Of a stretch of 64,000 bases of DNA, positions 2,156 through 52,833 are shown piece after piece (positions within the stretch are counted from its first letter, which is position 1; each line of letters starts with the position of its first letter). The stretch is from Eledone cirrhosa (taxonomy: Eukaryota): the NCBI GenBank assembly GCA_964016885.1, contig OZ024741.1:333994001-334058000 (forward strand), written 5' to 3'. The notes beneath the pieces are model-generated. The model had not been told where the DNA came from. It did no database searches and saw nothing but the letters and a program-made list of their open reading frames with translations. Both the position numbers and the translations under genes were made by a program.

Positions 2156-2743
2156 AATACAATAATGACATTTAAAAAGCTTGGCTCACAGGCAACTCAA
2201 CTGGCTCAGGTTTGATGGACAACAACTAAAATTTGGTTACTTTAAGTATGTAACAGTTATTTAGAGGGTTTTAATTCTTTGGCTAGGAGGATGTTTTGTG
2301 TAAGAGGGAAGGGAGAAAAAAAAAGGAGAAGGATGATGAGGAAATCTTGCTGTAAGCTGACAACATAGTGAATGCCTGGTTAAAGACTTGTTTGTTTAGT
2401 GTCAGGAAAATACAGACATCAATTAAGTTGGAGTGTTACCAGCAATAAATTTGTTAAGTCACGTGTGTGTATCTGTGTGCATATTAGTGTGTGCGTGTTA
2501 GTGTGTATGTTAGCATGTGTGTGTTTTTTGTATTGATATTTGTATGTTTGTATGTGCGTATGTTGATGATTACATACTTCAAGTAATGTGGTGTTTGTGT
2601 GGTTGTATGCATGAGTATATAAGTATAATACTGTGGTGTTTGTGAGTCAATGTTTGAGTGTTTATATATGTGTTTGTGTGTACATATATATGTACAGTGG
2701 TATATGGAGTTCAGATATTGCAGAGGTGTTTGTGTGTATCAAC

Positions 2744-2783
<40 letters not shown>

Positions 2784-2819
2784 TTCTGTGTGTGCATTAT
2801 ATATATATATATATATATA

Positions 2820-3119
2820 GGAAAAAGTATGACCCCGACGGCAGATCTCCAGCCGTTTAAAAACAGGATGGCATAGAACAGAACAAAGGAGAGGCACAAA
2901 ACAAAGAAAAGAATCCCCGGTCACTGATGAGGTCACAGAATGTGCGACGAAAGAACTTTGACAATATATGAACAACCGTCTGGTTGTGGAACCAACCAAC
3001 CAACCAACCGGAAATTTATAATTTTTTTTTTTTTAAATTTATATTTAATTTATAATATATTGGAGTGAAAGCAACTGGTGCGTGTGTTTCTTATTGGCAA
3101 CATGACCCTCCCAAAGTAT

Positions 3120-3120
<1 letters not shown>
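2820..3120 (+). mobile_element. Short non-coding hammerhead-bearing element (Penelope pLTR-like or retrozyme-like) between (TA)n runs
   Basis: ~300 bp of CpG-containing sequence bounded by (TA)n, containing CTGATGA...GAAA and ending ATGACCCTCCC. Homologous to 23952-24325 (-). Confidence 0.65.
2920..2962 (+). ncRNA. Minimal type-I hammerhead ribozyme motif
   Basis: GTCA-CTGATGA-G-GTCACA-GAATG-TGCGAC-GAAA-G-AA-C-T-T-TGAC. Stem I is GTCA/TGAC, stem II is GTC(A)CA/TGCGAC, stem III is 2 bp, and the UH site follows CTT. Confidence 0.65.
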
Positions 3121-3200
<80 letters not shown>

Positions 3201-3266
3201 GTGTACATATATATGTACAGTGGTATATAGAGTTCAGATATTGCAGAGGTGTTTGTGTGTATCAAC

Positions 3267-3306
<40 letters not shown>

Positions 3307-3410
3307 TGTCTCTCCTTTGTTCTGTCCTACACCATCTTGTTTTTGTGTGTTGAAGTGAAAACCAACAGGTGCATATATATATATGAATACATATATATAT
3401 ATATATATAT

Positions 3411-13202: not shown

Positions 13203-13234
13203 TGTCAGGAATATTCAACTGTGGTCGCAGTGCT

Positions 13235-13272
<38 letters not shown>

Positions 13273-13303
13273 AGCACTGCGACCACAGTTGAATATTCCT
13301 GAC
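13203..13303. repeat. Perfect palindrome centred on (TA)n
   Basis: tgtcaggaatattcaactgtggtcgcagtgcttatg-(TA)n-cataagcactgcgaccacagttgaatattcctgaca. The right arm continues into an RTE-type 3' end on -, similar to 53400-53480. Confidence 0.95.
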
Positions 13304-13615: not shown

Positions 13616-16388
13616 ATAATAATAATAATAATAATAATGAAATTATTGTGTACAGTGGTCAGGTGCACTACAACTCGTCAAAGGTGCATGTATAGTACAT
13701 AGAATAATATACAAATGTCAAGGAAGTGAATAGTGTATGAGTCATGATATACATGTGTGCGTGTGTATGGAGGGGGATATCAGGTGTAGTGCTGGCGAAT
13801 CTCAGGAAGCATGGAGGTTTTAAAGGATGCAGTGTCTCGGCAGCTAACAACTGATGCAGGTAGTTTGTTCCATGCTTCAGCAACTCTGAGCATGAAAAAA
13901 TGTTTCCAAAAGTCATGGGAGCTGTGCTGTTTTCTGACTTTGTGGGCATGTCCACATGGTGTTAGACACATGGAAAACAAAAAGGTACTCAGGGTTGGCA
14001 AGATGGCTAATAATTTTGTGGCTGTTTACCAAGTCAGTTGCCAGAGCTTCAAAGTATCCATGTCCAAGGAAGCAGGGTGTTCAGCGTATGGTAGATGCCT
14101 GATGGAGGGTATTTGCTTGGTTGCACGTCCCTGAACAGTTTCCAGGCAGTCAATGTTCTGAGCAAGATAGGGGTTCCAGACTGGTGATGCAAATTCTAAG
14201 TGTGGCCGCACCATAGCCATGTACAGCCTTAACTAGATAGCTGGAGAGCAGCTGACAAAGGTCTTGCTGAGTGATGCTAAGACAACCTTGGCCCTCTTGA
14301 CAATTTTAGAGACGTGCTTCATTCAATGCAAATCACTGCTGACCGTAATGCCCAGGTCACTCTCACAAGAAGACTTCTTAATATTAGTGTTGTGGAGGGA
14401 GTATGTGGACGCTGGGTTTTTACTTCCAAAATGCATGGTGGAACACTTGTCCACAGCTAGCTTGAGTTGCCAGTCTATGATCCATTGCTGCATTGTGTCC
14501 AGGTCAGATTGCAGGCAAGATCTATAGTGTTCAGGATCTGTCCTTTTTATCTTGATGTCATCTGCATATTTCAGTACTGTGGCATTCTTTAAGTTGGCAT
14601 CTATGTCATTAATATATGCCACAAACAAAAGAGGGCCAGGAACAGATCCCTGTGGTACCCCAGATGACATCTCATATGGTGAGGAATGCTGTCCTAGAAA
14701 TGTGACTACCTCTCTTCGACTGAGAATGAAGGACTTCAACCAGTTAAAAAGATCATCCTTCACACCCATTGCAGAGAGTTTTGCCATAAGTCTTTTGTGT
14801 GGTACAGAATTGAAAGCTTTAGCAAAGTCAAGGTAAACAACATCCACCCATGAGCCGCCATCAGTGATCCGGGTGATGTCTTCAAGAAACTCGATAAGTT
14901 GATCACAACAGCTGGAGTTGGGGATAAATCCAAATTGCGAGGGCCAGATAAGACTGTGAGAGTTCCAGAAGTTCCAAAGCATTTCTCTGACACAGGATTC
15001 CATGAGTTTGGCTGGCAATGCAGCTAGTAAGACTGACTGGACGATAGTTCACAGGTGATGTGCGGTCACGCTTTTTGAACAGAGGAATGATACAGGCAGT
15101 TTTCCACTGTTCTGGAGTAGCACCGTTGTTCAGACAGAATTGGAAGAAGCGTGATAGCTGGTGCAGAAGGAAGTACCCACCACGTTTGAGAAGCAGGTAC
15201 GTAACACCATCAAGACCAGGAGAGGCATGGTTGCATTTAATTTTAAGGTGACGTCGCAGCATTGCAGGTGTAAATTCCATAGTTGTAATAGAATCTGATG
15301 TTGGAGGTGGTGGAGACGGTACACTCTGGTCTTCAATAGTGAAAATGCCTGAATAGCATTCAGTAATGAGTTCTGCCCATTCCTTGGGGTCATCAGTAAC
15401 CTGCTTGTGTGGGGATTGCGAAGAGGACCAACTGGAGAGTGAGGCCTCTGCTTTGAGTGAACATACTTCCAGAACACCTTACTGCCAGGGCTGGTTGCTA
15501 TGCGCTGCTCAAATTGAAGCACTGCCTTTTTTGTCACCTGTTTGAGATGGTTGGATGATTTATTTCGCTTCTTCCTATTGATATCTAATTTATGCAATTT
15601 GTACTCATGTTCAGCATTACAACGTTCTTTTCTGGCAAGACGGACTGCTGCAGTCTCCCAAATTGCACTTTTGGGGTGTTTTTTTCTGCTTACGTGGCAC
15701 CAATGCTGCACATGCTGTCCATATTGAGCTCAGGATGTTCTGGAGTACAGTGTTGACATCTCCAGAGTCGTAGAACTCAAGCCAGTTTGGACGTTGCTAC
15801 TCGGTGCAGTAACAGTTCCAGTCTGCTTTATTCCAGTCAAAGTGAGCAGTTAGGAGATGGTTGTGGTTCTTGTTACTGCCCATGTTGGATAGATTGGCAA
15901 TGATCAGAGTCACCTGAAGGTTCCTCAGTAGTAACACTAATAACCATTTCAGGAGTAGTGGTGAAGAGTAGGTCCAAAGTGTTGCCACCTCTTGTTGGGG
16001 AGGTGACTACTTGGGACCAGTTCAAGTCCAGCACTAGCTCAAGGAAGTCATTTGCACTTTGCGGCCAATGAAAGGTTTCCCTGTCAATCTCAGGGTGATT
16101 GAAGTCCCCTGCAATAAAAACATAAGTGGCTGTTTTCCTGGCAGCTAACTCTGAGGATATCACAAAGTTGAGTGTCCTGAGGGTAATTTGGGGGACAGTA
16201 AACGACTCCAAGTAGCAGTGTTGACATGGTCATACATATATCGCAGAAAAATACCTCTTGCTGCGATTGGTTCAAATCAACACAAGGAATTACTTAAAAA
16301 TTTGACCAAACATAGACCATTACATCACCACCACAACGATTAATGTGGTCTTTATGAAACAAGTTGTAGCCAGTTATGCTGAAAACTA
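13616..16388 (-). mobile_element. CR1-clade LINE, 5'-truncated, with ORF2 (APE endonuclease + RT) broken by stops and frameshifts
   Basis: EN motifs IAGDFNHP, PTRGGNTLDLLFT, SDH. RT motifs NYRPVSLTS, VYLDFAKAF, SGVPQGSV.GPLLF, YADD. C-terminal VRPHLEFASPVWNP and FF..RV..AWNKLP. (ATT)n tail at 13616-13640. Confidence 0.92.
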
Positions 16389-23951: not shown

Positions 23952-24325
23952 GGGGAGGGTCATATTTGTGTAATAATATTGCCAGAATTAATAAGAGAAC
24001 CCACTCACTGTTTGGTTGGTTTTCGCTTCTGTGTCTTTTATGTCGGTTAATTTAATTTATTCGGTCCTCAATGTTACCATTGACTGACCAACTGTCAAAA
24101 ATACAGATACAATATAGACACAAACACATATATATAGTCTAAGAAAGTTCTTTCGTTGCACATCTGCAACATCGTCAGTGGTGCTATTATGTTTCCTCCC
24201 ATTGTATTGTATGCCTACGCCATCTTTATTTAGTCTATTTATTTATTTATTTATACTTCTCTTAGGTCAGTGTTGTTTGTTTGGGTGTTGTTGTTCCATT
24301 CATTTTTTCTGTTATATATCGCGGT
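23952..24325 (-). mobile_element. Second member of the hammerhead-bearing ATGACCCTCCC-terminated element family
   Basis: Shares gatggc.tag..., the hammerhead core, aaccaaccaa and the ATGACCCTCCC terminus with 2820-3120; bounded by (TA)n. Confidence 0.65.
24141..24182 (-). ncRNA. Hammerhead ribozyme motif (stem I degenerate)
   Basis: CTGACGA-T-GTTGCA-GATG-TGCAAC-GAAA-GAACTTT, with a perfect 6-bp stem II. Confidence 0.55.
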
Positions 24326-24398: not shown

Positions 24399-24659
24399 CA
24401 TATATAGATAGATAGATAGATAGATTTCTTTATTAGCCACAAGGGCGCAACAAGAAAAGGGGACAATACAAAGACATGCCGGGGATTTTACATACAGTCG
24501 TGTAAAAAATATAAAAACAAACAATTTCAACAATCGAAATCCCCAATTGGGGAGAGGCGCCACAAATGGGTTGTTTAATACCCCGTCGATAGAACAACCC
24601 TCAACTCCAGGAGCGTGTTGTGCAAGTGCTCCTTTCTTCCTTTTGCTCTCTTCCTCAAC

Positions 24660-27600
24660 CTACAGGCTTATAAACAGAGAAGGCCCAATCACTCGGGCCA
24701 TTTTCGCTTCATTCACCCACCTTTCAGTAAATTTACTGGGGTGCAGTGCCTCTCTCTCCACCCTGATTCTCCTTCTAAAGTGATACTTAAAGAAGGGAAT
24801 CAATTGTTGTCCGGAGAGAAAGGCATCTGTCCTCAGTCCTCTCAACCTCGTCCACCATATAACTTATTTCACCATAGCCACCGTACAGAGGAAAACCGCC
24901 TCTCTTTCGTTTTTGAAAGAGGCTGGCGGTTTGATCCTTACTATGGACTCAGCAGTCAACTGGATTTGTCCCATACGCGACAGCAGTTGTTCTGCATAGT
25001 TCCACAGGTCGCTTACGCCCGGGCAGTGTACAATTGCGTGCAGAACTGTTTCAATGTCCTGCGCACATCTTGGACACGTCCTCTTGGAAGGATCCCTGCC
25101 AGGGCGTCCGTGCCTGTAGATATTGTCACGAACCGGTAGAGCTCCTCGGTAGCACTGCCAGGCCAGGGACCTCTGGAAGTTGTCCATAGGTCCCGGGCGG
25201 AAAGTCCTACACAACAGGCTGGTGAGCTCATCGTCTTCAACGCCCAGAGTCTCTCCGAGCACGTCGTCGCCCTTGTAACGTACAATCCCTCTATAGAATG
25301 TCGATTGCTGCGCCCGCTTGCCAGAGGACTGTGAGCCTGAGCGCATTCAATGTGCCAGGCGCCGATCCTTTTCGGTCTTTTCTTCACCCAGGACTGCAGC
25401 TCCGTTAGCGAGACGAGCTGTGGAAAAGCCAGTCTCACAAACGGTGCCCACACCGGTTGGGGGTCGGTGAGGAATACCTGGAGATGCCGCAGCCTCAGCG
25501 CATGTTTGCGCATCATCAGCCACGGCATTCCCAGCCCTCCGTTGGAAGGGTGCTGACAGCAGACGGATCTCCTCACCAGCGGAGCCTGCTTCTTCCACAG
25601 AAATTGGAAGAGCATGCGTTCCATCTTGGCGAGGTGTTCACGGGGACAAGGCACGACAGTCAAGCGGTAGTAGATGACGGACGCTATGAAAGTGTTCGCC
25701 ACCTCCGCTCGACCTTTCAAGGACAGTTTGCACTCTGCCCACTTCTGAGTGCAAACACCTTGGCCGTGACCTCTTTCCAGTTTTTCTCCACCTGGAGGTC
25801 TGGACCGAATCAGACCCCGAGCAATTTCACCGGTCCGTCCGTCCAGCGTCCAACGACGCTGTCGGATGTCATCGGTTTGCCTCTCCACGTACCGAGTTGC
25901 AAACCGACAGACTTGTCTGGGTTTAGTTTTGCTCCCGTCAGCGTTTCGTATTCTTTCAGTAAGTTGCCGATCACCCCGATTTCCGAGGTGCTCGACACCA
26001 TTACCGTTACGTCGTCGGCATAAGCCGACGCCGCTTTGCGCAGTCCCGGTTCTAGGGGGATGCCCTGCAACAGCTCCAATTTCCGCAGTAGTGGCTCTAG
26101 AGTCAATACATACAGAATGGAGGAGAGAGGGCATCCCTGTCGAATGGAACGCGTGATTGCGGACGGCTCCGGTAGGTAGCCGTTCACCTTGACCCTCGAG
26201 CATATGTTGGTGTGCATCGCCTCGATCCATCCTCTGAACACGGGACCGAAACCGGCCGCCTTGAGAACCGCTTCCAAGTATCGACGGTCGACCCTATCGA
26301 ATGCCTTAGACTGATCCAAGTTGATCAGAGCTCCACCGAAGCCGGGTTTACTACCCACCCTCTCTATGATGTATCGCATGAGGTGGAGGTTGTCGTGTAT
26401 GGACCTGGTCGGGATTGCACACGTTTGCGCTTTCCCTACCAGGTTCTCGACGACAAGCGCCAACCTCGTCGCTAGCACCTTGGCCAAAATCTTTAACTCT
26501 GTGTTGAGCAGAGTTATGGGCCTGAAGTTGTTAATTTCGTCCCCCTTGTTCTCGTCTTTCCTGATCAGCGTTACTACGCCCTTGCCTTCAGAACTGGGAA
26601 TTCTCCCGTTCTGCTGCCAATTGCAGTAGACGGCTTCGAGGACGCCAGAGAAAAAGTCCGGCATGCCTATGTAAAATTCGTAGGGTAGACCATCTAGATC
26701 GGGTGACTTGCGTTTCCCGCAGCGGCCCAGAGCGTCCCGTATCTCAGTGTCCGTGATCGGTCTTTCGCAGAACTCGGCGTCCGTGTTCGAGAGACGCGGC
26801 AGGCCGTCGATGTATGAACTAAAGTCCATTGCCCCCGTTCGGCTCACCGTCGTTCTGCTCAAACAGTCGCGCAAAGTGCCGCTGAGAGGCCGCGCACATT
26901 TGCTTGGGGTCAAGTAGCACGCGTCCGTTTTGGTCTTTCAAAGACCAAATCATGGACTTGTTGCCACTTTTTGCCTCCGCCACTCGGGCCCAGCTGACAG
27001 CTTTCGCTCCTTCGTTTCTTAGAGCACGTGTTTTGCTTCTGACCATGCAGCCTTCGTGTTTCGCATCGAAGAACTGGTCCAGTGCCGTTCTCGACGCTAA
27101 CACTCTAGCCGCGTTGCCACTTCTAAGTGCCCCCTCTACCTTGGCTACTAGTTCTCTTTCTATTCTGTTTTTCTCTAAGGCTAACTCTCTGCTATACCCT
27201 ATCGATTCTATTCTAATTGCTTTCTTGAGAGAGTACCACCATCTATTGTTGACGATGGCTCCCGTTAACTGTTGCTTGACTAGTCTACTTATCCGTTCAC
27301 TGTAAGCTTTACGTGCCGGCAACGACACGTTCACCTTCCAGTATCCGGGACCCTGTCTATGTATTCTATCACGGTTGACTAAGCAGACAACTAACTTGTG
27401 ATCTGAATAGGCAACCATGTGCATTCGTGAACAGCTTAACATCTCCTTGTCCCTTTCTCTAATGAAGAACCTATCTAAATACTATCTAGATGTCCCACTG
27501 CGGTTTACCCACGTCCACTGTGGTGCAGTCGGGAAATCCAGTCGATACCTATCGGCCAGTTGGAATTGGCCGATTAAAGTTTTGAGGCTGTTGCACCCCG

Positions 27601-28084
27601 CTCTACTGGGACATGCTCCCACATAGTCCCATCGTGCATCTAGGATACCATTCCAGTCCCCCACTAAAAGTAAGCAGCGAGACGTTCCCAGAAAAGACTC
27701 TAGACGCTTAAAGAAGTCTGGCCGTGATTGCGATTGCCCGGTCGGGGCATAAACGGCCACCAGTCTGAAGGCTCCACCTCCGATACTGTTCACGTCTAGG
27801 ACTACCAGTCTACCCTCCGGGTCCAAGTGTACTTGCTGTACTCCGACGTCCAGGTTCTTCCGAAACATAACAGCCACTCCACCTCCACCTCCTGGCCGAC
27901 AGAGAGATGCGTAGATCTCAAAGTCATCGAAGATGGGGGTTAGTTGCTGCCTGTTGTGGATCCTGGACTCGGTGATGGCTATCACATCCATACTGTGTGA
28001 CCTAAGGTCGTTTAAAAGTTGGCCCTGTTTCCAGGGCATCCCTAGGCCACGCACATTCACGGTACCAACTCGTAAACCAGCCAT
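24660..28084 (-). pseudogene. Tx1-type ORF2 (APE endonuclease, reverse transcriptase, C-terminal CCHC), several frameshifts and stops
   Basis: VGTVNVRGL, DVIAITES, LVAVYAP, VGDWN, YLDRF, SDH; NFRPITLLNTELKILAK, LDQSKAFDRV, IRQGCPLS, AYADDV, KLLGV. Stops at 27482-84 and 25810-12. Confidence 0.93.
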
Positions 28085-28125
28085 GTTGGTGAAGAAAAGT
28101 TGGAGAAAAAGGACGAAAGGTGCAC

Positions 28126-29542
28126 TTAACTTTTCGTTTCCTGGAGATCGGGTTGTTCAATCTCCATTTGGGTGCTGGATGGGGTGTTGGGTGGGGTGGG
28201 GAAACATTTCAACAGGACGCGGTTGATGGGTTTGTGGCAGGGGTTGCCCACGTCATGTGAAAATTTAATTTTTAGGTCTTCATAGGTTTCCATAGAAACC
28301 CTTATAAGTTTAAGGTGTGGAGACGATTCTGCCTTGACGAAAGTTTTGCCCTCCGTCTCCACCTTGGGGTTTTGGGACATGACCTCCATCATACTCTTGT
28401 TGTTTGTGTTGATGTATGCGTATTGTTGTTTGTGTTGTTGTTTGTGTCTGTGGTTGTGTGTTGGTGTTGGTGATTGGAGTTTTGTGGGTTTTGTGGTGTC
28501 TCTTGTTTTGTTTTTTAGATTTCCGCGATTCTCCCTCTTCTTCACTTAAAGAAGGAGAAGCAGCTTCATCCGTCGATGAATAATCATCGTCAGGTGTGTG
28601 GGGTAAGGGTATGCTGTGTGGTGGTGGTGGTGTTTCGGTATGTGTGTTTGTGGACAAGAGGCTTTCGTCCTTCTACCGAAATGTTTATTTTGTTGTTATT
28701 ATCAATAACGACTCTTTCGGGTATTTTGGAGATTCTCTCCGGTTTCATTTGCAACAGAATCTCCAAATCTGTACCCGCCCACCTTTGTCGAATAGATTTT
28801 CGTATCGAAAGTATTATGTCTGTTTCTGGCTCTACGAAGCCAGCCAAGATCCACCAGATGTTAATGCTTGGAGGTATGTTTTTTATTTTTATTTTTTGTG
28901 TCCTTTTCCCCATGTATGTAGGGAAAAAGGTGTATGCTTTTGACACTATTGGTGTCATAGAGTTTTTTTGGGCGAGTGCCTCGCTTTTAAACAGTACGGA
29001 AACACTTCCGTACTGTTTTCCTCGTTGGAGAAAATCGACATTTGCTAGAATTTCCTTGAAAGAATCTTCTATCTCTGCTTGATTAACAAATGTCGGCTTT
29101 CTTGACGAATTTGACACAGTCCTAAAAGTGACTGATCGGCGGTTTGTGTCTTCCTTTATTTCAAGGGGTGAGTTAATTCTAAACCCACCTCTTTCTTCGA
29201 AAGTTACAAATTTTCTCCCTTGCTGGAGCATATCTCTTGCGTTGGAGATATCAAGATTTATAAAATCTTGTTTCTTGCTCACTGTGTCAGCGAAAGACAT
29301 TTTCTTTTTTTGTTGATGATGTTGTTATCGTTGTTGGAAATCTCAGTTCCTTGTCGAGGTGAAACTTTATGTGTAGATGTATCTGTAGAGTTGTTGATGT
29401 CTTTTTCATGTGTATGTATGTCAATGGCTTTTTTTGCTGTGTTTTCCTCTGTGTTATTGTTATTTTTTTCCGATTCGGCGGTAGAAATTGTAAAATTTTC
29501 AAATGTTAATATATTTTTTTCTTTTGTGACACAACTGTCCAA
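28126..29542 (-). pseudogene. Tx1-type ORF1 (nucleic-acid-binding protein), frameshifted
   Basis: Overlapping minus-strand ORF pieces 29542-29279, 29300-28590, 28657-28310 and 28545-28126 lie directly upstream of ORF2; RRM-like segment FFPTYMGKRTQKIKIKNIPP. Confidence 0.75.

Positions 29543-29865: not shown

Positions 29866-29929
<64 letters not shown>
29866..29929. repeat. (GATA)n microsatellite at the LINE 5' junction
   Basis: About 16 GATA units. Confidence 0.95.
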
Positions 29930-30010
29930 CAGAAACGAAAAACCAACCAAACAGTGAGTGTGTTCTGTTATTAATTCTGGCAATATTACTACAACAATAT
30001 GACCCTCCCC
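29927..30010 (+). repeat. Inverted copy of the terminal ~85 bp of the 23952 element
   Basis: The reverse complement ggggagggtcatattgttgtagtaatattgccagaattaataacagaacacactcactgtttggttgg matches 23952-24035 with scattered mismatches. Confidence 0.9.
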
Positions 30011-30013
30011 AAG

Positions 30014-30044
<31 letters not shown>

Positions 30045-31445: not shown

Positions 31446-31662
31446 AAATAATATGACATTAATAGATATATGTGACTGCAAATTGCTGGTTTTTGGGTGG
31501 GCGATATTTTCATGTTATTAATCAGAATATAAATTTTTTCGTTATGCTAATAGGTAAGTGTTCTATGAGTGCTAGCCAAAATCTTGAGCAAACTTTCAAT
31601 TTTTCAATAAATCTATATTGAAATATGAATCGTAAGACCAAACAGATTACATATCAATATGT

Positions 31663-33495
31663 CAGAGGATGGATCGAGGCGATGCACACCAGCATCTGCT
31701 CGAGGGTCAAGGTGAACGGCTACCTATCGGAGCCGTTCGCAATCACGCGTTCCATTCGACAGGGATGCCCCCTCTCCTCCATTCTGTATGTATTGACTCT
31801 AGAGCCACTACTGCGGAAATTGGAGCTGTTGCAGGGCACCCCCCTAGAACCGGGACTGCGCAAAGCGGCGTCGGCTTATGCCGACGACGTGACAGTAATG
31901 GTGTCGAGCACCTCGGAAATCGGGGTGATCGGCAACATACTGAAAGAATACGAAACGCTGACGGGAGCAAAACTAAACCCAGACAAGTCTGTCGGTTTGC
32001 AACTCGGTACGTGGAGAGGCAAACCGATGACATCCGACAGCGTCGTTGGACGCTGGACGGACGGACCGGTGAAATTGCTCGGGGTCTGATTCGGTCCAGA
32101 CCTCCAGGTGGAGAAAAACTGGAACGAGGTCACGACCAAGGTGTTTGCACTCACTCAGAAGTGGGCAGAGTGCAAACTGTCCTTGAAAGGTCGAGCGGAG
32201 GTGGCGAACACTTTCATAGCGTCCGTCATCTACTACCGCTTGACTGTCATGCCTTGTCCCCGTGAACACCTCGCCAAGATGGAACGCATGCTCTTCCAGT
32301 TTCTGTGGAAGAAGCAGGCTCCGCTGGTGAGGAGATCCGTCTGCTGTCAGCACCCTTCCAACGGAGGGCTGGGAATGCCGTGGCTGATGATGCGCAAACA
32401 TGCGCTGAGGCTGCGGCATCTCCAGGTATTCCTCACCGACCCCCAACCGGTGTGGGCACCGTTTGTGAGACAGGCTTTCCCACAGCTCGTCTCGCTAACG
32501 GAGCTGCAGTCCTGGGTGAAGAAAAGACCGAAAACGATGGGCGCCTGGCACATTGAATGCGCTCAGGCGCTCACAGTCCTCTGGCAAGCGGGCGCAGCAA
32601 TCAGTGGATACTCCACTTCGACATTCTATAGAGGGATTGTACGTTACAAGGGCGACGACGTGCTTGGAGAGACTCTGGGCGTCGAAGACGATGAGCTCAC
32701 CAGTATGTTTGGTAGGACTTTCCGCCCGGGACCTATGGACAACTTCCAGAGGTCCCTGGCCTGGCAGTGCTACCGAGGAGCTCTACCGGTTCGTGACAAG
32801 ATCTACAGGCACGGACGCCCTGGCAGGGATCCTTCCAAGAGGACGTGTCCAAGATGTGCGCAGGACATTGAAACAGTTCTGCACGCAATTGTACACTGCC
32901 CGGGCGTAAGCGACCTGTGGAACTATGCAGAACAACTGCTGTCGCGTATGGGACAAATACAGTTGACTGCCGAATCCATAGTAAGGATCAAACCGCCAGA
33001 CTCTTTCAAAAATGAAAGAGAGGCGGTTTTCCTCTGTACGGTGGCTATGGTGAAAGAAGTTATATGGTGGACGAGGTTGAGAGGACTGAGGACAGATGCC
33101 TTTCTCTCCGGACAACAATTGATTCCATTCTTTAAGTATCACTTTAGAAGGAGAATCAGGGTGGAGAGAGAGGCACTGCACCCCAGTAAATTTACTGAAA
33201 GGTGGGTGAATGAAGCGAAAATGGCCCGAGTGATTGGGCCTTCTCTGTTTATAAGCCTGTAGGTTGAGGAAGAGAGCAAAAGGAAGAAAGGAGCACTTGC
33301 ACAACACGCTCCTTGAGTTGAGGGTTGTTCTATCGACGGGGTATTAAACAACCCATTTGTGGCGCCTCCCCCCTATTGGGGATTTCGATTGTTGAAATTG
33401 TTTGTTTTTATATTTTTTACACGACTGTATGTAAAATCCCCGGCATGTCTTTGTATTGTCCCCTTTCTTGTTGCGCCCTTGTGGCTAATAAAGAA
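31663..33495 (+). mobile_element. 5'-truncated Tx1/L1-clade LINE copy with 10-bp TSD
   Basis: Near-identical to 24426-26237 in opposite orientation. TSD ATCAATATGT at 31653-62 and 33496-505. The ORF is open to 33262 apart from one TGA at 32087-89. Motifs AYADDV and CPRCAQDIETVLHAIVHC. Confidence 0.96.
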
Positions 33496-52030: not shown

Positions 52031-52614
52031 TGGAGGCGGGTTGAAATTTGATGAGGCACACTTGTATTGTATCCAAATTAGCTGAAGTATTGACGGAACA
52101 AATTGTAGACTAGCATTTGATTTTCAACAGAATCAAAAAAGTTTTCTAAAATCCAAACAAGTTGTCGTCTTAATTATTATTACCAGCCCCTTGTTCCAGT
52201 AATTGCAGAATTAGGAGTAGATTTAAGATTTAAAAAAAAATTGTATACATCATTAGTAAACATATGAGTATGGTATAGGCAAGGCAAAGCAAGTCTGATT
52301 TATGTGTATACAACAATAATTTCAAATATAGTTGAATATATCAGTTTGATTTCACGTCTGTCAGGTTAGTAATTTATCATTTCTCAAGTTGTATCAAAAT
52401 ATGCCAATGAATTGCAATAGTTTTATTTTTTGGTGATATTTTATAGTTTATATCTAATATATTCAAGAAATATAATATATCATCATCATGTATGTACATA
52501 TATATATATATATGTGTATGTATATATATATATATATGTATGTATATATATATAAATGTATATACATATACGTGTGTATATATATTTATATATATATGTA
52601 TATATACATGCACT

Positions 52615-52662
<48 letters not shown>

Positions 52663-52833
52663 AGTGCATGTATATATGCATATATATATAAATATATACA
52701 CACACACACGCACACACAAGTGCATGTATATATACATATATATATAAATATATATACACACACACGCACACACAAGTGCATGTATATATACATATATATA
52801 TAAATATATATACACACACGTATATGTATATAC

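What the first reader, a model, noticed from the sequence alone, without database searches (positions are those of the whole stretch)
2820..3120. Short non-coding, (TA)n-associated element family carrying a hammerhead ribozyme (retrozyme or solo-pLTR-like)
Seen: two diverged 300-375-bp elements (2820-3120 +, 23952-24325 -) sit between (TA)n runs. They align only in islands: GATGGC.TAG, the core CTGA(T/C)GA-N-stemII-GAAAGAACTTT, AACCAACCAA, and an ATGACCCTCCC terminus. Stem II differs as GTC(A)CA/TGCGAC versus GTTGCA/TGCAAC, and both copies have one extra nucleotide between A9 and stem II. Fragments recur inverted at 3306-3345 and 29927-30010. Established: Penelope-like elements carry minimal type-I hammerheads in their pLTRs, and small non-autonomous hammerhead retroelements (retrozymes) make circular RNAs in metazoans. 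Inference: this is a cephalopod microsatellite-targeting ribozyme retroelement family, mobilised by a Penelope-type RT and possibly not yet catalogued. The stem II difference could also reflect CpG decay.
Basis: partly seen in the sequence, partly recalled or inferred. Interest (0 to 1): 0.75.

Follow-up and report, generated by a model that had tools for sequence, protein, structure and literature searches.

The report
Truncated Penelope retrotransposon ends with hammerheads
These short stretches are broken-off tail ends of two related, very abundant protein-coding jumping genes (Penelope-like retrotransposons) whose end repeat carries a small hammerhead RNA motif predicted to cut itself; this is a known kind of element, not a separate non-coding family.

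Summary
The hammerhead motif is real, but the elements are not a non-coding retrozyme family. Copy 1 (2859-3127, +) and copy 2 (24313-23952, -) are 5'-truncated 3' ends of two autonomous Penelope-like elements (families A and B, about 59% protein identity). Other genomic copies extend into a telomerase-like RT plus C-terminal GIY-YIG ORF. Ten complete family-B ORFs (1208-1210 aa) are 99.4-100% identical. The shared 'terminus' ATGACCCTCCC is the ORF start codon (MTLPKYNNI), and copy 2 begins with the ORF's last 20 codons. The core pattern occurs 32,330 times (control 0). The same minimal hammerhead follows the ORF in 8 of 16 distant relatives, with covarying stems. 5' ends are continuous, often inverted, and no short tandem arrays were seen. 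Both window ribozymes carry a stem mismatch; cleavage is untested. The A/B RT has an insertion of about 70 aa and fits no named clade cleanly. The scan noted that insertion and these element ends before, on other DNA of this genome.

The parts
2820..2858 (-). 3' end of a third Penelope-like element (family C, Hydra-type): stem III, GUC cut site and 3' strand of stem I of a different hammerhead; joined 5'-to-5' to copy 1
2859..3127 (+). Copy 1: 5'-truncated 3' end (pLTR) of family A, ending at +26 of the ORF start, followed by (TA)n
2864..2876 (+). GATGGC.TAG island; resembles a YY1-type promoter motif (label recalled; function inferred)
2920..2962 (+). Minimal type I hammerhead: stem I 2920-2923/2959-2962, core 2924-2930, extra G 2931, stem II 2932-2937/2943-2948 (one A-C mismatch), GAAA 2949-2952, predicted cut after 2958
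3102..3127 (+). ORF start (MTLPKYNNI) of the next tandem unit; the commonest 3' end of insertions
2663..2785 (+). About 110-bp direct duplication, left copy (right copy 3185-3302), flanking the C+A composite; possibly a long target-site duplication
3185..3302 (+). Right copy of the direct duplication
3303..3375 (.). Older family-A remnant: inverted piece 3303-3350 (-) joined to a short forward piece of about 3346-3375 (the forward piece read by eye)
23952..24313 (-). Copy 2: 5'-truncated 3' end of family B, with a deletion of about 150-170 nt between two (AAAT)n tracts of the UTR; ends at +12 of the ORF start
24251..24313 (-). Last 20 codons and stop of the family-B RT/GIY-YIG ORF
24143..24180 (-). 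Minimal hammerhead of family B: core 24178-24172, stem II GTTGCA/TGCAAC, predicted cut after 24145; a G-to-C change at 24143 leaves only one stem I pair
29925..30017 (+). Short family-B 3' end without the ribozyme; ORF start codon at 29999

Best explanation
The two copies are 5'-truncated 3' ends of two autonomous Penelope-like retrotransposons, likely made when the elements' own GIY-YIG endonuclease nicked a (TA)n run and their own reverse transcriptase started copying just inside the ORF start of a tandem transcript and stopped after a few hundred bases. Shown: the full unit is about 4.1 kb (ORF, 3' UTR with the hammerhead, start of the next ORF) and occurs in partial tandems and inverted pairs. 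3' ends cluster at +26 and at +69 to +86 of the ORF, next to TA runs. 5' ends are scattered and often joined to an inverted copy. Inferred: the UTR is the pseudo-LTR and holds the promoter, the ribozyme and the RT start signal. The hammerhead is a minimal type I form predicted to cut only as a dimer or with protein help; the two hammerheads of one tandem transcript would pair through their stem III segments. The two window copies are probably dead, and each has a stem mismatch. The C+A junction at 2858/2859 likely joins two cDNAs from different elements that were primed on opposite strands.
For: Upstream of other copies lie GIY-YIG and RT coding sequence. Ten complete B ORFs are 99.4-100% identical. 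The model's best structural matches are telomerase RT (Z 15.3, rmsd 3.7, 360 aligned) and, for the C-terminal domain, I-TevI (Z 10.3, rmsd 2.1, 88 aligned). 3' ends: family A 39 of 92 at +26 and 34 at +86; family B 55 of 120 at +26, 13 at +69 and 15 at +84; 184 of 203 ends touch a TA run. 5' extents run from 254 to over 1800 nt, and 26 of 57 other copies have an inverted same-family piece at the junction. A full hammerhead descriptor is met in 8 of 16 distant relatives, against 0 of 16 antisense, a shuffle mean of 0.014 and 0 in 41 kb upstream. Covariation: 36 cells changed on both sides, 0 of 500 shuffles as high. The anatomy matches PMC8557442, PMC4209133 and PMC11167929.
Against: No cleavage or expression data. 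Rfam finds no hammerhead in 2830-3110. Neither window copy passes the strict descriptor, and neither folds better than shuffles (z 1.12 and -1.08). In A and older B the stem III segment AGAACU is not a full palindrome, and stem I of B has only 2 contiguous pairs, so these ribozymes may be weak. Among 27 A copies the core is barely better kept than the rest (0.024 vs 0.037 divergence). About 95 of the first 100 A copies read through the predicted cut. No fully intact family-A ORF was verified: L148 is frameshifted near its end and L147 is 5'-truncated. Pfam gives no family for the full 1210-aa protein.
Confidence: 0.9

Rival explanations
1. The short copies are an independent non-autonomous retrozyme or SINE-like family that spreads through small circular RNAs using a Penelope RT in trans.
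For: 3' ends greatly outnumber ORF 5' parts: contig depth in run X2 drops about 100-fold past the tail (not a copy number). Several B copies, including copy 2, share a UTR deletion. Retrozymes derive from pLTRs (bioRxiv 10.64898/2026.07.22.740005).
Against: No fixed 5' end. Deletion-bearing copies still run into the ORF by different lengths. Of 20 same-strand hammerhead pairs in fetched loci (not de-duplicated), 18 are 3.7-4.15 kb apart, and the two short ones (301 and 632 nt) are A next to B. In the first 100 genome matches, the only same-strand pair under 1 kb is also B next to A.
Confidence: 0.05
2. The element identity is as described, but in families A and B the hammerhead is vestigial or works only as a protein-binding or structural signal, and uncut RNA is the template.
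For: Imperfect stem III palindrome and short stem I. Read-through at the cut site in about 95 of 100 copies. In the anole element, hammerhead mutants still insert in vitro (PMC11167929).
Against: The core, the extra base and U16.1 are kept between A and B, while N7, H17 and loop bases vary as the hammerhead rules allow. The youngest B subfamily has a self-complementary AGAUUU segment (with G-U pairs). Relatives keep perfect palindromes and a U3-A8 swap. Read-through is also expected from ligated circles.
Confidence: 0.3
3. The motif is a chance look-alike in low-complexity DNA, with the stem II difference produced by CpG decay.
For: No Rfam hit. A and B stems can both derive from one CpG-containing stem.
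Against: 32,330 matches against 0. The same architecture sits at the same place in relatives at 33-49% protein identity, with different paired stems.
Confidence: 0.01

Closest known systems
Canonical EN+ Penelope-like elements with minimal hammerheads in the pLTR (Cervera and De la Pena 2014, PMC4209133; read: parts 1-2 of 4)
   Same: Short stem I, 6-bp stem II, one extra base between A9 and 10.1, G10.1-C11.1, near-absent stem III. Most motifs are lone remnants of truncated elements, and some are close pairs on opposite strands.
   Different: In A and older B the stem III loop is not palindromic. No cephalopod family appears in the text read; its supplements were not seen.
Nematis and Neptune clades of C-terminal EN+ PLEs (Craig et al. 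2021, PMC8557442; read: passages, sections 11-12, supplement searches, supplement part 54)
   Same: Single ORF with RT then GIY-YIG, a CX4CxxC linker, cysteines and histidines consistent with CCHH, partial tandems, 5' inversions, an optional tail, (TA)n targets. The short spacer after CxxC resembles Nematis.
   Different: About 125 aa between RT motifs 3 and 4 (about 55 in the Penelope row of their Fig. S1), motif 4 reads GAAIG/GGPIG, a long Asn-rich N-terminal tract, ORF of 1210 aa, tail of 43-60 nt. Clade not settled by a tree.
Poseidon element of Anolis, PAc (Frangieh et al. 2024, PMC11167929; read: parts 1-2 of 4)
   Same: RT starts at sites inside the ORF start, and their spacing defines the tail; AT-rich target; hammerhead in the pLTR.
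   Different: In PAc the hammerhead overlaps the start codon and RT starts at +111-118 without target homology. Here the hammerhead lies about 140-190 nt before the ATG, and ends fall at +26 and +69 to +86 on short AT/TA words.
Metazoan non-LTR retrozymes (PMC7229834, passages; bioRxiv 10.64898/2026.07.22.740005, part 1 of 5 and passages)
   Same: Type I hammerhead, about 300 nt, PLE-related.
   Different: Retrozymes are non-coding tandem arrays of fixed units; these copies are single, variable in length and colinear with coding elements.
Hydra clade PLEs, including Hydra-1_Obim (PMC8557442)
   Same: Family C has RWR (RWK in the paper), DKT, CxCX5C, CxxC and CxH motifs, a hammerhead with a true stem III, and (TA)n insertion.
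   Different: Its hammerhead has a U3-A8 core, a long stem II and a GUC site, unlike the listed Hydra-1_Obim motif, so it is a different family.

Membership tests
EN+ Penelope-like element | Telomerase-like RT | tested here: met
   Top structural matches are TERT; YVDD motif; weak Pfam RVT_1 at E 8e-4, below cutoff
EN+ Penelope-like element | C-terminal GIY-YIG endonuclease in the same ORF | tested here: met
   I-TevI match at model residues 677-774; PF01541 above cutoff in 2 of 3 relatives scanned; not detected by Pfam in the element itself
EN+ Penelope-like element | Partial tandems forming pLTRs, 5' inversions, optional tail | tested here: met
EN+ Penelope-like element | Hammerhead motif in the pLTR | tested here: met
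Minimal type I hammerhead of PLEs | Conserved core, extra base 9.1, G10.1-C11.1, covarying stems | tested here: met
   Family level. The two window copies each carry one stem mismatch
Minimal type I hammerhead of PLEs | Palindromic 15.2-16.2 and loop 3 for dimer pairing | tested here: inconclusive
   Perfect in 8 of 8 relatives with a full motif; self-complementary with G-U in young B; two central A-A mismatches in A and older B
Minimal type I hammerhead of PLEs | Self-cleavage | not testable with these tools
   No assay; the genomic break-point test was not significant
Non-LTR retrozyme | Short (150-450 bp) head-to-tail tandem repeats, each with a hammerhead | tested here: not met
   No same-family short pair among 20 same-strand pairs in loci, or among 99 neighbouring pairs of the first 100 genome matches; a sample, not the whole genome
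Non-LTR retrozyme | Non-coding, fixed unit independent of an ORF | tested here: not met
Non-LTR retrozyme | Abundant small circular RNA | not testable with these tools
   No RNA holder listed
Nematis / Neptune clade | CX2-5CxxC linker before the endonuclease | tested here: met
   CTNRKCIIC (B), CIDKKCITC (A); spacing compared by eye with Fig. S2
Nematis / Neptune clade | RT groups with the clade in a tree | not testable with these tools
   Labelled reference proteins were not available to the alignment and tree tools
Nematis / Neptune clade | No long insertion between RT motifs 3 and 4 | tested here: not met
   Spacer 113-137 aa (median 125) in all 51 of 150 representatives where both motifs were found; reference rows are much shorter
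Telomerase-type IFD | Insertion folds like the TERT IFD | tested here: inconclusive
   163-aa model, pLDDT 87; best Z 4.8, yeast TERT Z 4.5 with 81 aligned, about the same length as RTs lacking an IFD
Hydra clade (family C, 2820-2858) | DKT, RWK-like motif, CxCX5C linker, CxxC and CxH near the end, hammerhead, (TA)n target | tested here: met
   compared by motif, no tree

The most novel reading that the evidence does not exclude
Families A and B belong to an unnamed branch of C-terminal-endonuclease Penelope-like elements. It is defined by a conserved insertion of about 70 aa at the telomerase IFD position, a GAAIG/GGPIG motif 4 and a palindromic minimal hammerhead 120-180 nt after the ORF. 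It is widespread (330 representatives at E<1e-30) and is expanding now in this genome (over 32,000 ribozyme cores, ORFs 99.7% identical). Its insertions can join cDNAs of unrelated PLE clades back to back, as at 2858/2859.
Probability: 0.45. Interest if true: 0.55.

Novelty: new member of a known kind. Interest (0 to 1): 0.3.

Why it matters
As flagged, the feature is ordinary: hammerhead-bearing ends of truncated Penelope-like elements were described in 2014. It still gives a tractable system. Very young, intact copies and sharply defined RT start sites make two open questions testable: what PLE hammerheads do in vivo, and how tandem and inverted insertions arise. Rfam did not detect the motif at this locus, although the genome holds tens of thousands of them. 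If the parent lineage is an unnamed PLE clade with an insertion where telomerase has its IFD, it bears on the PLE-telomerase relationship.

Tried and rejected
Rfam: no hammerhead family in 2830-3110 at E up to 10, and none in the top 150 of 326 whole-window rows (176 rows not shown). Pfam and PDB sequence search with the full 1210-aa protein: nothing; a profile gave only weak RT hits. Two protein searches for more distant families in this genome appeared to return family B again (judged from shared coordinates and frame lengths). A pattern for a third stem II type gave 2 matches against 1 control. A DNA search with the stretch 3' of the B cut site came back empty, which shows nothing. Expression: no RNA holder listed; the contigs laid cannot show RNA ends or circles. 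Pile-up of 5' ends at the cut site, read by eye from the first 100 matches: 4 clear breaks plus 1 unclear within 0-3 nt, against about 7 per 18 nt at a control site. Hand-calculated Poisson P is about 0.07, and microhomology can explain them, so not claimed. The RT insertion has no clear structural match. A 5' splice site before the ATG (GTGAGT in B, GTGCGT in A) was considered and dropped, because two relatives keep TGCGTGT without the GT donor. tblastn of the B protein found no ORF remnant in the window. The paper id recalled for a study of dimeric PLE hammerheads was wrong, so that study is known to me only from memory and is not used. Literature searches for these families in cephalopods found no description of them. 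PMC13282606 reports 31 recently active Penelope-like families in O. vulgaris without mentioning ribozymes (passages). PMC8967140 and PMC6962438 (passages) mention Penelope elements and 235 Rfam hammerheads in squid. Repbase, Dfam and the O. vulgaris repeat library could not be searched, so these families may already be catalogued.

Full report
Observation. Both elements are present between (TA)n runs, with the hammerhead core at 2924 (+) and 24178 (-). The window lies in a 3.0-Gb genome. A search with copy 1 gave 2,326 first-look candidates; the 40 scored were itself and 39 places at 91-93% identity, all starting near query base 40. Copy 2 gave 3,079 candidates and 39 other places at 91-97%. 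A pattern for the shared core and stem II matched 32,330 times against 0 for the reversed control; 18,587 places carry a perfect family-A stem II. Rfam does not recognise the motif here. The nearest named relatives of the protein are Octopus vulgaris predictions at 63-67% identity, so an octopod host is an inference.

What the copies are part of. Walking upstream from other copies led in both families into coding sequence for a GIY-YIG endonuclease and an RT. An RT query gave 20,669 candidates, with the 150 scored at 94-100% identity. In 12 stretches chosen for long open frames, 10 complete family-B ORFs of 1208-1210 aa were found, 99.4-100% identical in DNA. They sit in partial tandems of about 4.1 kb and in inverted pairs. 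Family A has the same layout and about 59% protein identity to B over 594 aa. The two longest A frames fetched were each incomplete. An AlphaFold model of the C-terminal 791 aa (pLDDT 92) matches telomerase RT best and has an I-TevI-like C-terminal domain. This is the architecture of an EN+ Penelope-like element (PMC8557442).

The islands explained. ATGACCCTCCC is the start codon of the ORF in both families. Copy 2 opens with the last 20 codons of the ORF and lacks about 150-170 nt of UTR between two (AAAT)n tracts, a deletion shared with several other copies. GATGGC.TAG, and a GCATGCGC motif further upstream in full-length UTRs, resemble YY1 and NRF1 sites. Those labels are recalled and a promoter role is inferred; a young A copy varies at the first motif. 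AACCAACCAA sits at different places in A and B and is probably not homologous.

Ends. 3' ends cluster: in A, 39 of 92 distinct contexts at +26 of the ORF and 34 at +86; in B, 55 of 120 at +26, 13 at +69 and 15 at +84. Of 203 ends that do not continue into the ORF, 184 touch a TA run. This is the optional 'tail' that in the anole element marks two internal RT start sites (PMC11167929). 5' extents are continuous from 254 to over 1800 nt (the sample was chosen by similarity to the window copies, hence the lower bound). Among 57 other copies, 26 have an inverted same-family piece at the 5' junction, 8 a TA run, 20 something else, and 3 run past the locus. No short same-family tandem was seen. The retrozyme definition (PMC7229834) is therefore not met.

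The ribozyme. Family A reads GTCA-CTGAWGA-G-GTCACA-GAATG-TGTGAC-GAAA-GAAC-T-W-TGAC. Family B has CTGACGA-T-GTTGCA-GATG-TGCAAC-GAAA followed by GAACTT or GATTTA and TG. The variable positions are those the hammerhead leaves free. A versus B alone cannot exclude CpG decay, so relatives were fetched from metagenome contigs (44 loci). Sixteen distinct loci had 200 nt or more after the ORF match; the others ended too early, were duplicates, or had a match ending inside the ORF. Eight of the 16 carry a complete minimal hammerhead 118-182 nt after the match, all with the extra base and a perfect 4-6 nt palindrome in place of stem III. Controls: 0 of 16 antisense, 0.014 in shuffles, 0 in 41 kb upstream. 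Some of the eight are related to each other. On a 12-row alignment, 90% of cells pair, 36 cells change on both sides (0 of 500 shuffles), stem II is 97% paired, and C3-G8 becomes U3-A8 in 2 rows. The structure was drawn from these sequences, and two rows are misaligned in stems I and III. This is the motif of PMC4209133.

Against activity. Each window copy has a stem mismatch and fails the strict descriptor. Folding is no better than shuffles. The A and older-B stem III segment is an imperfect palindrome. The core decays almost like its flanks among inserted copies. About 95 of 100 copies read through the cut site, with no significant pile-up. No RNA data were available.

A third element. 2820-2858 on the minus strand is the 3' end of family C, found in more than 20 other fetched loci. 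Its parent has an RT and C-terminal endonuclease with Hydra-clade motifs. It also has a complete hammerhead with a U3-A8 core, a bulged stem I, a 5-6 bp stem III and a GUC site. In the window it is joined 5'-to-5' to copy 1, the only cross-family junction among the 59 copies typed. The composite is flanked by a direct duplication of about 110 bp. Priming from two staggered nicks on two different RNAs is the likely cause; a later insertion or deletion is not excluded.

The parent lineage. The library search found 330 representatives at E<1e-30. The distance between RT motifs 3 and 4 is 113-137 aa in all 51 of the top 150 where both motifs were found, against about 55 aa in the Penelope row of Craig et al. 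Fig. S1. The linker spacing resembles Nematis. The motif-4 words GAAIG, GGAIG and GGPIG do not occur in the text held for that paper's supplement, in which long runs are cut. The insertion folds confidently but matches nothing clearly, TERT included. A tree with labelled references was not possible, so clade status is open.

Verdict. A real feature of a known kind: truncated ends of two young, abundant Penelope-like elements with minimal hammerheads, plus a fragment of a Hydra-type element. Interest 0.3. The possible unnamed clade is the more interesting lead.

Noticed in passing
window 2820-2858 (-): End of a Hydra-type PLE carrying half of a monomer-type hammerhead (U3-A8 core in full copies), fused head-to-head with the family-A piece.
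   Followed up: yes
L099:2043-5672 (G000:C1): Intact 1210-aa PLE ORF with an Asn-rich tract of about 170 aa and an insertion of about 70 aa between RT motifs 3 and 4 that is shared by many distant relatives.
   Followed up: partly
window about 24430-29320 (-) and 31620-33350 (+): A non-LTR element with an APE-type endonuclease and RT (Pfam Exo_endo_phos and RVT_1), with an inverted partial copy and (TATC)n/(GATA)n runs close to the family-B pieces; looks Tx1/L1-like (label recalled).
   Followed up: partly
G000:C1:14381872-14395558: Four family-B hammerheads about 4.15 kb apart on one strand plus an inverted one: an array of at least three full units.
   Followed up: no
rows, e.g. G000:C1:970083-970118: A family-A subfamily has AGAGCU in place of AGAACU at stem III, which would give tandem A-G pairs in a dimer.
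   Followed up: no
L238:2560-2600 and L245:1738-1775: Distant relatives (42% protein identity) also end shortly after a TGCGTGT motif and an ATG, running into (TA)n, so the RT start geometry may be conserved across the lineage.
   Followed up: partly
window 13210-13297 and 52580-52697: Long inverted repeats centred on (TA)n runs; they give spurious miRNA matches in Rfam.
   Followed up: no
window 14326-15729 (-): Degenerate LINE RT fragments of another clade (CR1/L2-like by eye).
   Followed up: no
L050:1117-1510: A family-A insertion directly against the (TA)n at the 3' end of a family-B copy; the families share the same targets.
   Followed up: no
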